In this document: piece by piece, positions 30,712 through 31,125 of the stretch
Numbering within the stretch: the stretch's first letter is position 1
Layout of the letters: each line of letters starts with the position of its first letter
Origin: the human T2T-CHM13v2.0 reference genome, Homo sapiens
NCBI RefSeq assembly: GCF_009914755.1
Contig: NC_060938.1
Direction: 5' to 3' (one strand)
DNA: 64,000 bases
Notes under the pieces: model-generated
Database searches by the model: none
What the model was told of the DNA's origin: nothing
What the model saw: the letters and a program-made list of their open reading frames with translations, nothing else
Program-made: the position numbers and the translations under genes

Positions 30712-31125
30712 TGTTGCTGGACTTAAGGTCGCGGTGGATGATGGGAACAATTGCCTCATCATGTAAGTAGTTCATCCCTCTGGCAATCTGCACAGCCCAA
30801 TTCACCAGGATGTCTGGGGGAATCCTTTTCCCAGATAACACTCTATTCAAAGGTCCTCCACGAGCAAACTCCATGACCAAGCAGAGGTTGGGCTCCTTCA
30901 GACATACCCCTCTTAGGGCAATGATGTTGGGGTGCTTCAGCATGGCGAAGAGCTTGGCCTCTTGGCGAACATTCTCTATGGTCTGGCTGATGTCCTCATC
31001 AGGGTCGTGGCGAGCTGCTTTCACAGCAACCTCATCCCCTATCCAGAAAGCACGATAGACCTTCCCAAAGCCCCCGATGCCAATAATCTCTTCCAAGGTG
31101 AGCTCCGCAAAATCAATTTCTAACA
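30712..31125 (-). CDS. MAP3K9: MAP3K9/MLK1 coding exon 2 (kinase subdomains I-VIb)
   Basis: Acceptor (pyrimidine tract)CTCAG|TG at 31125 and donor AACA|GTGAGT after 30712. Encodes GIGGFGKVY (Gly loop), VAVK, the alphaC Glu (RQEAKLF) and HRDLKSSN. Joins exon 1 in frame (PPIQ-L-LEIDF). Length 414 nt, phase 1-1. Confidence 0.98.

What the first reader, a model, noticed from the sequence alone, without database searches (positions are those of the whole stretch)
30712..31125. Exon 2 circle would create its own AUG and a stop-free (rolling-circle) kinase N-lobe ORF
Seen: exon 2 is 414 nt (138 codons), phase 1 at both ends, ends in ...AGCAACA and begins TGTTAGAA. Back-splicing would give AGC AAC A|TG TTA GAA, a new AUG that exists only on the circle. 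It is in the kinase frame, has A at -3, and there is no stop anywhere round the circle. The repeat unit is [10 protein letters not shown]...HRDLKSSN, with the Gly loop, VAVK, alphaC and catalytic loop but no DFG or rest of the C-lobe. Established: second exons flanked by long introns with inverted Alus are typical circRNA sources, and stop-free 3n circles can be translated into concatemers. Inference: MAP3K9 could produce a circRNA encoding a catalytically dead tandem-repeat protein. Nothing here shows that the circle is expressed or translated.
Basis: partly seen in the sequence, partly recalled or inferred. Interest (0 to 1): 0.85.

Follow-up and report, generated by a model that had tools for sequence, protein, structure and literature searches.

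The report
Ordinary MAP3K9 exon; hypothetical circle
This is the normal second coding exon of the human kinase gene MAP3K9; if it were ever spliced into a circle it could be read endlessly, but that holds for about four in ten coding exons and nothing found here shows such a circle exists.

Summary
The sequence facts are right. Exon 2 (window 30712-31125, minus strand) is 414 nt, is split after the first codon base at both ends, has AG/GT splice sites, and would join A to TG on a circle with no stop in the kinase frame.

The special status claimed for it does not hold.
- A wholly coding exon whose length is a multiple of 3 is stop-free on a circle almost automatically: 169 of 170 such exons in a chr14 sample. 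2047 of 5143 internal coding exons on chr14 have such a length.
- The exon already holds three in-frame AUGs. One has a better context than the junction AUG.
- A junction AUG is uncommon: 1 of 62 in the sample, about 0.4% from base frequencies. That still predicts very roughly 100-400 such exons genome-wide.
- MAP3K10, MAP3K11 and MAP3K21 have no intron 1. Their equivalent sequence lies in the first exon, so there is no junction to be conserved.
- Inverted Alus flank the exon only at 1 kb or more on one side and 4.7 kb or more on the other, with many competing pairs.
- No paper text searched names a MAP3K9-derived circle.

Endless-ORF circRNAs are a known class. Low interest.

The parts
30712..31125 (-). 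MAP3K9 exon 2: 414 nt, wholly coding, phase 1 at both ends. It encodes the first half of the kinase domain (LEIDF...HRDLKSSN).
   Evidence: Pfam Pkinase positions 3-128 of 263. Identical to residues 2-138 of 271 in PDB chain 3dtc_A.
31124..31125 (-). First two exon bases, TG. They complete a TTG Leu codon begun by the last base of exon 1. They would be bases 2-3 of the junction AUG on a circle.
30712..30712 (-). Last exon base, A. It is the first base of the ATA Ile codon completed by exon 3. It would be base 1 of the junction AUG on a circle.
31126..31127 (-). AG acceptor of intron 1, preceded by a pyrimidine tract.
30706..30711 (-). GTGAGT donor of intron 2. The same position and phase are kept in MAP3K10, MAP3K11 and MAP3K21.
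30941..30943 (-). In-frame ATG inside the exon (exon position 183; G at -3, C at +4).
   Evidence: coordinates read off.
30872..30874 (-). In-frame ATG inside the exon (exon position 252; G at -3, G at +4). This is the best context of the four in-frame ATGs.
   Evidence: coordinates read off.
30773..30775 (-). In-frame ATG inside the exon (exon position 351; G at -3, A at +4).
   Evidence: coordinates read off.
31058..31081 (-). Codons for the glycine-rich loop, GIGGFGKV.
   Evidence: The motif name is recalled kinase knowledge.
31019..31030 (-). Codons for VAVK, which holds the ATP-anchoring lysine.
   Evidence: The motif name is recalled kinase knowledge.
30713..30736 (-). Codons for the catalytic loop HRDLKSSN, the last whole codons of the exon.
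31126..38802 (-). Intron 1, 7,677 bp. It is absent from the three human paralogs.
1..30711 (-). The part of intron 2 inside the window. The whole intron is 39,533 bp. Exon 3 lies 8.8 kb beyond the window's left edge.
37247..37537 (+). Alu, antisense to the gene, in intron 1, 6.1 kb upstream of the exon 2 acceptor. It is the upstream arm of the best across-exon inverted pair.
   Evidence: 84% over 300 nt with 29387-29684.
35802..35986 (+). Older Alu piece, antisense to the gene, in intron 1, 4.7 kb upstream.
31479..31596 (-). 118-nt Alu fragment, sense to the gene, 354 nt upstream of the acceptor. It pairs only with antisense Alus 7.2 kb or more downstream.
29304..29683 (-). Alu, sense to the gene, in intron 2, 1.03 kb downstream of the donor. 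It is the downstream arm of the best across-exon pair.
28515..28830 (-). Alu, sense to the gene, in intron 2, 1.9 kb downstream.
27480..27764 (+). Alu, antisense to the gene, in intron 2, 2.9 kb downstream. It can pair with the neighbouring sense Alus inside the same intron, which would compete with across-exon pairing.
38803..39208 (-). Coding part of exon 1 (Met to the SH3 domain and linker). Its last base, T, starts the split Leu codon.

Best explanation
Window 30712-31125 is the ordinary, constitutive second coding exon of MAP3K9 (MLK1). It encodes the N-terminal half of the kinase domain: the glycine loop, the VAVK lysine, helix C, the hinge, helices D and E, and the HRDLKSSN catalytic loop.

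Its function is as part of the linear mRNA. The A|TG that back-splicing would create is a coincidence of two ordinary split codons. One is a TTG leucine in the SH3-kinase linker. The other is an ATA isoleucine just after the catalytic loop.

The endless frame is an arithmetic consequence of a coding exon whose length is a multiple of 3. If the exon is occasionally back-spliced, as happens at low level in many genes with long Alu-bearing introns, the circle would be one more member of the large class of circRNAs with a host-frame endless ORF.

Most likely such a circle would be untranslated or translated at trace level. Any product would be a concatemer of half-kinase units that cannot fold as a kinase and would be cleared by the proteasome.

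Shown: the exon anatomy, the frame, the AUGs, the Alu map and the paralog structure. Inferred: low or absent circle formation, lack of translation, and instability of the product.
For: - Annotation: all 4 RefSeq mRNA models that contain exon 1 also contain exon 2, out of 8 models.
- Identity to the solved MAP3K9 kinase domain, residues 2-138 of 271. Pfam Pkinase 3-128 of 263.
- Generic nature of the stop-free frame: 2047 of 5143 chr14 internal coding exons are multiples of 3. 169 of 170 sampled ones are stop-free on a circle, and 86 of those 169 also carry an in-frame ATG.
- Four in-frame ATGs on the circle, three of them native.
- The junction ATG frequency of 0.4-1.6% predicts about 100-400 such exons genome-wide.
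- No counterpart in MAP3K10, MAP3K11 or MAP3K21, which lack intron 1.
- No proximal complementary sequences bracket the exon within 1.5 kb. There is no QKI core motif in the 1-kb flanks.
- DRACH motifs are not enriched: 5 against 6.9 +/- 2.4 in shuffles.
- No text in the paper library names a MAP3K9-derived circle. 'circMAP3K9' and six spelling variants gave 0 papers. In the 4 papers I opened for MAP3K9 it is named only as a predicted or measured target mRNA in the text or in a reference-list title.
- Published passages: rolling-circle products of tested circles were unstable and proteasome-sensitive (10.1101/473207). A study of abundant AUG circRNAs found no evidence of translation (PMC6487579, abstract and passages).
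Against: - The junction ATG itself is uncommon per exon, roughly 1 in 60 to 1 in 250.
- The exon is long (414 nt) and sits second in the gene between 7.7-kb and 39.5-kb introns.
- 26 inverted Alu matches link intron 1 to the window part of intron 2. The best is 84% over 300 nt. So circularisation is plausible.
- Endogenous endless-ORF circles that are translated have been reported: circEGFR, circ-E-Cad, circTau, circPSAP, circPFAS, circABHD12.
- I could not look at RNA-seq reads, circRNA databases, Ribo-seq, proteomics or supplementary tables. Absence of evidence here is therefore weak.
- My chr14 baseline is small and biased towards exon-dense genes.
Confidence: 0.85

Rival explanations
1. 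The exon 2 circle exists at low abundance as a non-coding by-product of splicing. It would be driven by Alu pairing or by a lariat from exon-2 skipping, and it is not translated.
For: - Long flanking introns and inverted Alus across the exon.
- More than 880,000 human back-splice events are catalogued according to a review (PMC11724312, passages), so low-level circles from such exons are common.
- Skipping exon 2 would keep the reading frame, because both introns are phase 1.
Against: - No text names it.
- No RefSeq model skips exon 2.
- The nearest across-exon Alu pair has arms 6.1 kb and 1.0 kb from the splice sites. Within-intron pairs lie closer to each other.
- This reading is compatible with the best explanation rather than opposed to it.
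Confidence: 0.45
2. One reading: the circle is made and is translated round and round from the junction AUG. The product is a tandem-repeat, catalytically dead N-lobe protein with a function of its own, for example soaking up kinase chaperones or interfering with MLK signalling.
For: - An endless ORF with four in-frame AUGs.
- Precedents for rolling-circle translation.
- A frameshift into either other frame would meet a stop within at most about 40 codons. Those frames have 10 and 8 stops per round (20 and 16 over two rounds), so a natural way of ending exists.
Against: - No evidence of the RNA, of ribosomes on it, or of peptides.
- No enrichment of m6A-type motifs.
- The unit lacks the SH3 domain and, by recalled domain knowledge, the leucine zipper and CRIB. 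MLKs use these to dimerise and be regulated, so no known interaction surface supports a dominant-negative role.
- Half a kinase domain ends at the catalytic loop, with helices D and E left uncovered. It is expected to misfold (inference from kinase architecture).
- The paralogs cannot make the equivalent circle.
- Junction AUGs of this kind are expected in about 100-400 exons by chance.
Confidence: 0.02
3. The same junction arises on linear RNA instead. Exon repetition by trans-splicing or read-through would give an in-frame duplicated N-lobe inside a capped mRNA.
For: - An exon of 3n length with phase 1 at both ends would stay in frame if repeated.
- Exon-repeat transcripts that mimic back-splice junctions are a documented artefact of expression vectors (PMC6487579, passages).
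Against: No annotated model has a repeated exon 2. There is no evidence for endogenous exon repetition at this gene.
Confidence: 0.02

Closest known systems
Endogenous circRNAs with an endless (infinite, rolling-circle) ORF: circEGFR (exons 14-15, 249 nt), circ-E-Cad, circTau 12->7 and 12->10, circPSAP, circPFAS, circABHD12
   Same: The circle length is a multiple of 3. There is no stop in the host frame and there is an in-frame AUG. The repeat unit is a fragment of the host protein. Sources: passages of PMC11724312, PMC11263353 and 10.1101/473207.
   Different: Those circles were detected as RNA and backed by reporters, mass spectrometry or antibodies. Here not even the back-splice junction has been seen. 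In the passages I read, no example was described as having a start codon formed by the junction itself.
Second-exon circRNAs that contain the host start codon ('AUG circRNAs', e.g. circZNF609, circAXIN1)
   Same: A single, long second exon flanked by long introns.
   Different: Those exons carry the gene's own start codon and 5' UTR. MAP3K9's start codon is in exon 1, and exon 2 is purely internal coding sequence. Stagsted et al. describe AUG circRNAs as Alu-independent in their biogenesis and found no evidence of translation (PMC6487579, abstract; passages).
Kinase-derived circRNA proteins, e.g. the circEGFR product
   Same: The host gene is a protein kinase and the product would be a non-catalytic fragment.
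   Different: circEGFR encodes part of the extracellular/juxtamembrane region, and its product is said to remain membrane-associated and prevent receptor endocytosis (review table). The MAP3K9 unit would be half of the catalytic domain itself, with no known partner surface.
RefSeq N-terminally truncated MAP3K9 isoforms (NM_001284231, NM_001284232)
   Same: They are also MAP3K9 products that carry an incomplete kinase domain.
   Different: They are the mirror image. They start from an internal promoter and first exon at window 13226-13455. They lack exons 1-2 and begin translation in or just before exon 3, so they keep the C-lobe rather than the N-lobe.

Membership tests
Rolling-circle-translated (endless ORF) circRNA | A covalently closed RNA with a detected back-splice junction | not testable with these tools
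   Reads, circRNA databases and supplements are closed. No text names a MAP3K9-derived circle (0 papers). Searches listed 25 of 31, 18 of 18 and 20 of 55 papers. I read titles and abstract starts of those lists. I opened 4 of these papers for MAP3K9, and each named it only as a target mRNA or in a reference title.
Rolling-circle-translated (endless ORF) circRNA | Circle length a multiple of 3 with no stop codon in one frame | tested here: met
   414 nt. 0 stops in the kinase frame over two rounds, against 20 and 16 in the other frames.
Rolling-circle-translated (endless ORF) circRNA | An in-frame start codon | tested here: met
   Four in-frame ATGs: three native and one made by the junction. 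Six out-of-frame ATGs open ORFs of 4-20 codons.
Rolling-circle-translated (endless ORF) circRNA | An element for cap-independent initiation (IRES-like sequence or m6A site) | tested here: inconclusive
   5 DRACH motifs against 6.9 +/- 2.4 in 1000 shuffles; 835 of 1000 shuffles reach 5. This is not enriched, but a single site could suffice. The published IRES-like hexamer list was not available to me.
Rolling-circle-translated (endless ORF) circRNA | Ribosome footprints, a junction peptide or a protein ladder | not testable with these tools
   No Ribo-seq or proteomics access. Table S4 of 10.1101/473207 lists 990 junctions from 646 genes and is a supplement I could not see.
Alu-driven exonic circRNA | Inverted complementary repeats in the two flanking introns, close to the splice sites and not out-competed by within-intron pairs | tested here: inconclusive
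   Across-exon inverted Alu pairs exist: 26 inverted matches, the best 84% over 300 nt. Their arms are 4.7-6.1 kb upstream and 1.0 kb or more downstream. The only Alu piece within 1 kb is a 118-nt fragment. Intron 2 holds 9 sense and 13 antisense pieces that can pair with each other. No non-Alu inverted pair brackets the exon within 1.5 kb.
Protein kinase domain (Pfam PF00069 / PF07714), for the unit encoded by exon 2 | A complete catalytic core: glycine loop, VAIK lysine, helix C glutamate, HRD catalytic loop, DFG, activation segment, helices F-I | tested here: not met
   Exon 2 covers only profile positions 3-128 of 263 and residues 2-138 of 271 in 3dtc_A. DFG and all that follows are in exon 3 and beyond. 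The unit is half a kinase domain.
Mixed-lineage kinase gene structure (MAP3K9/10/11/21) | A phase-1 intron straight after the HRDLKxxN codons | tested here: met
   AAC A|GTGAGT or AAC A|GTAAGT in 4 of 4 genes.
Mixed-lineage kinase gene structure (MAP3K9/10/11/21) | An intron between the SH3 domain and the kinase domain, needed for a single-exon N-lobe circle | tested here: not met
   Present in MAP3K9 only, 1 of 4. In MAP3K10, MAP3K11 and MAP3K21 the SH3 and N-lobe matches are in the same frame, 33-57 nt apart, within one open frame of 307-338 codons that contains the initiator Met.

The most novel reading that the evidence does not exclude
In some tissue that expresses MAP3K9, exon 2 is back-spliced and the 414-nt circle is translated round and round. 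The start would be the junction-made AUG or one of the three native ones. The product would be a ladder of half-kinase repeats that either has a role of its own (for instance a chaperone sink or a brake on MLK signalling) or acts as an aggregation-prone by-product. The start codon made by the junction would then be a clean natural reporter, because a peptide beginning there could come only from the circle.
Probability: 0.02. Interest if true: 0.6.

Novelty: already known. Interest (0 to 1): 0.12.

Why it matters
As it stands it matters little. The exon is annotated, the protein it encodes has a solved structure, and the 'circle with an endless ORF' is a paper construct that about 40% of internal coding exons would share.

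If the circle were shown to exist and be translated, it would be one more member of the known class of rolling-circle-translated circRNAs. It would have one handy property: a start codon that exists only on the circle, which would make circle-derived translation easier to prove.

The useful by-product of this check is a baseline for the scan. 'Length a multiple of 3, no stop round the circle' should not be flagged on its own. 'The junction makes an AUG' is expected in the order of a hundred or more human exons by chance.

Tried and rejected
1. Literature for a MAP3K9-derived circle.
- 'circMAP3K9' matched anywhere gave 0 papers. Six spelling variants gave 0.
- MAP3K9 + circRNA + back-splic gave 31 papers, 25 listed. 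MAP3K9 + hsa_circ + host gene gave 18 papers. MAP3K9/exonic/circRNA/GeneSymbol gave 55 papers, 20 listed.
- I read only titles and abstract starts of these lists. I opened four papers for the MAP3K9 passages. In all four, MAP3K9 is named only as a predicted or measured target mRNA or in a reference-list title.
- Papers not listed or not opened may differ. Supplementary tables, where circRNA lists usually sit, are closed and I did not ask for them.

2. Precedent for a start codon made by the back-splice junction.
- One search returned 0 papers.
- One search found 18 papers and listed 13. The circRNA reviews among them speak of a start codon made by RNA editing, not by a junction.
- Exact-phrase searches cannot show absence.

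3. A larger chr14 baseline.
- I planned 60 exon-dense 10-kb stretches and obtained 20.
- The junction-ATG rate therefore rests on 62 exons and on base frequencies from about 105 exon ends. It is rough.

4. Circularisation signals other than Alus.
- There is no QKI core motif in either 1-kb flank.
- The only inverted pair within +/-1.5 kb is a low-complexity pair inside intron 1.

5. m6A-type motifs are not enriched.

6. Conservation in orthologs could not be tested. No vertebrate genomes are within reach, and a protein search cannot show the third base of a Leu codon. I therefore did not spend a protein search on it.

7. Structure prediction of the 137-residue unit was considered and dropped. 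The unit is identical to half of a solved structure, and a predictor does not tell whether a truncated domain is stable.

8. Gain or loss of intron 1 cannot be decided without outgroup genomes. It may have been gained in the MAP3K9 lineage or lost in the three paralogs.

Full report
**What is there**

Window 30712-31125 on the minus strand is exon 2 of MAP3K9 (MLK1). Read on the gene's strand it follows a pyrimidine tract and an AG, begins TGTTAGAA, ends AGCAACA and is followed by GTGAGT. It is 414 nt long, or 3 x 138.

The kinase frame starts at the third base and gives 137 whole codons, LEIDF...HRDLKSSN. The first two bases, TG, complete a codon begun by the last base of exon 1. That base is T, so the codon is TTG, Leu. 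The last base, A, begins a codon completed by TA of exon 3, giving ATA, Ile.

The peptide matches Pfam Pkinase positions 3-128 of 263. It is identical to residues 2-138 of the 271-residue solved MAP3K9 kinase chain 3dtc_A. The DFG motif lies in exon 3, in the stretch ...KITDFGLAREWHRT.... Exon 2 therefore encodes the glycine loop, the VAVK lysine, helix C, the hinge, helices D and E and the catalytic loop, and stops there. The names of these structural elements come from general kinase knowledge, not from a call.

**Gene context**

RefSeq has 8 mRNA models.
- Four contain exons 1 and 2, always together.
- Three start at an internal non-coding first exon at window 13226-13455.
- One starts further downstream.

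Canonical exon 3 is outside the window, at chr14:64966998-64967178. Intron 2 is therefore 39,533 bp and intron 1 is 7,677 bp. I fetched the missing 9.1 kb of intron 2.

**The circle on paper**

Joined head to tail, the split codon is A|TG, with A at -3 and T at +4. Over two rounds the kinase frame has no stop, while the other frames have 20 and 16.

**Is it more than chance?**

The stop-free frame is not.
- On chr14, 2047 of 5143 unique internal, wholly coding exons (39.8%) have a length that is a multiple of 3. Of those, 552 have the same phase as this exon.
- I sampled 20 exon-dense 10-kb stretches from 22 genes, giving 395 exon/phase instances. Of 170 multiples of 3, 169 are stop-free in the host frame when closed into a circle. 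Of those 169, 86 also hold an in-frame ATG.
- A preprint reports that 14% of full-length human circRNAs have a host-frame rolling-circle ORF (10.1101/473207, passages).

The junction ATG is the one real coincidence.
- It occurred in 1 of 62 split-codon exons in the sample, a JAG2 exon.
- Base frequencies give about 0.4%: last base A in 11 of 104, first two bases TG in 4 of 106.
- Scaled by gene numbers, with chr14 holding 609 of 20,089 protein-coding genes, that means roughly 100-400 such exons in the genome.
- The sample is small and biased.

**The junction AUG is not needed**

The circle carries 10 ATGs. Four are in the kinase frame and open an endless ORF. Three of those four are native, at exon positions 183, 252 and 351. 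All three have G at -3, and the one at 252 also has G at +4, a better context than the junction AUG. The six out-of-frame ATGs open ORFs of 4-20 codons.

On a circle there is no 5' end, so no AUG is 'first'. Where translation would start depends on where a ribosome is loaded. DRACH motifs, the m6A consensus recalled from memory, are not enriched: 5 against 6.9 +/- 2.4 in shuffles.

**Would the exon circularise?**

Alus are present. A 19-base Alu 5' motif has 27 matches in the window against 0 expected.

- Intron 1 holds three Alu pieces. One is a 118-nt sense fragment 354 nt from the acceptor. The other two are antisense, 4.7 and 6.1 kb away.
- Intron 2 holds 22 pieces, 9 sense and 13 antisense. 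The nearest are sense copies 1.03 and 1.9 kb from the donor and an antisense copy at 2.9 kb.
- A comparison of intron 1 with the window part of intron 2 gave 48 matches, 26 of them inverted. The best near pair is 37246-37537 against 29387-29684, 84% over 300 nt.

Pairing across the exon is therefore possible. However, no inverted pair lies within 1 kb of both splice sites, and both orientations occur close together inside intron 2. By the published competition model (recalled, not read here), such within-intron pairs work against circularisation.

Within +/-1.5 kb the only other inverted repeat is a low-complexity pair inside intron 1. Neither 1-kb flank has a QKI core motif. The layout is permissive and ordinary.

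**Paralogs**

Searching the reference genome with the exon 2 peptide found MAP3K11, MAP3K10 and MAP3K21 (76%, 73% and 64-80% identity). It also found weaker hits in MAP3K12 and MAP3K13.

All three close paralogs keep the donor at the same place and phase, AAC A|GTGAGT or AAC A|GTAAGT. None has intron 1.
- The SH3 peptide of MAP3K9 exon 1 and the N-lobe peptide of exon 2 hit the same reading frame 33-57 nt apart.
- Both hits fall inside one open frame of 307-338 codons that includes the initiator Met.

The equivalent sequence is thus part of a first exon. A first exon has no acceptor and cannot form a single-exon circle. Orthologs could not be examined.

**Other circles from the gene**

Circles running from exon 2 to exons 4, 6, 7, 10 or 11 would also be multiples of 3. 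This again shows how common the property is.

**Literature**

No text in the library names a circle from MAP3K9. In the four papers I opened for MAP3K9 passages, it is named only as a predicted or measured target mRNA or in a reference-list title.

Endless-ORF circles are an established class. Examples are circEGFR, circ-E-Cad, circTau 12->7 and 12->10, circALTO1, circCORO1C, circASPH, circNFIB, circPSAP, circPFAS and circABHD12 (passages of PMC11724312, PMC11263353 and 10.1101/473207).

Two cautions come from the same sources.
- Products of tested rolling-circle ORFs were proteasome-sensitive.
- Vector-based assays can give false positives from linear exon-repeat transcripts, and abundant AUG circRNAs showed no evidence of translation (PMC6487579, abstract and passages).

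**Most likely mechanism**

The exon works as part of the linear mRNA. The latent AUG is a by-product of two split codons. Its TG depends on which Leu codon is used, which is partly a synonymous choice.

If a circle forms, I expect it to be rare and either untranslated or translated at trace level. Any product would be a string of half-kinase units. Each unit ends at the catalytic loop with helices D and E uncovered, so it should misfold and be degraded. This last step is inference.

The unit lacks the SH3 domain (exon 1). By recalled domain knowledge it also lacks the leucine zipper and CRIB that mediate MLK regulation. A specific dominant-negative role therefore has no known surface to act through.

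**Verdict**

- Observation: confirmed.
- Interpretation: partly supported. The arithmetic and 'catalytically dead' are right. The special status, the typical-source claim and the conservation test are not supported.
- Existence and translation of the circle: cannot be told with these tools.
- Interest: low.

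Noticed in passing
window 31126-38802; L002, L003, L004: Intron 1 of MAP3K9, between the SH3 domain and the kinase domain, has no counterpart in MAP3K10, MAP3K11 or MAP3K21. The next intron, after HRDLKxxN at phase 1, is shared by all four. Intron 1 was either gained in the MAP3K9 lineage or lost in the others. 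This could not be decided without outgroup genomes.
   Followed up: partly
window 13226-13455 (minus strand): An alternative non-coding first exon lies inside intron 2. It is used by NM_001284231, NM_001284232 and XM_054376117. Their coding regions begin in or just before exon 3. These RefSeq isoforms therefore lack the SH3 domain and the whole N-lobe, and begin in the middle of the kinase domain.
   Followed up: no
chr14 gene table; L002, L004: MAP3K11 and PCNX3, and MAP3K21 and PCNX2, are divergent head-to-head neighbours. MAP3K9 and PCNX1 are also divergent, about 98 kb apart. This looks like an MLK-pecanex gene pair kept through the duplications that made the paralogs.
   Followed up: no
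L012, chr14:99390797-99390949 (minus strand), JAG2: A 153-nt, phase 1-1 coding exon of JAG2 has the same property as the finding. A head-to-tail join would make an in-frame ATG with no stop round the circle. It was the only such case among 62 sampled.
   Followed up: no
window 24673-25620: A 948-nt Alu-matching stretch, sense to the gene, which I read as about three head-to-tail Alu copies. It lies in intron 2, with a further copy at 25758-26062.
   Followed up: no
window 38803-39208 (minus strand): The exon 1 coding sequence opens with low-complexity runs of alanine and glutamate before the SH3 domain. It overlaps the first exon of the divergent lncRNA MAP3K9-DT and an annotated silencer at 39112-39751.
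   Followed up: no
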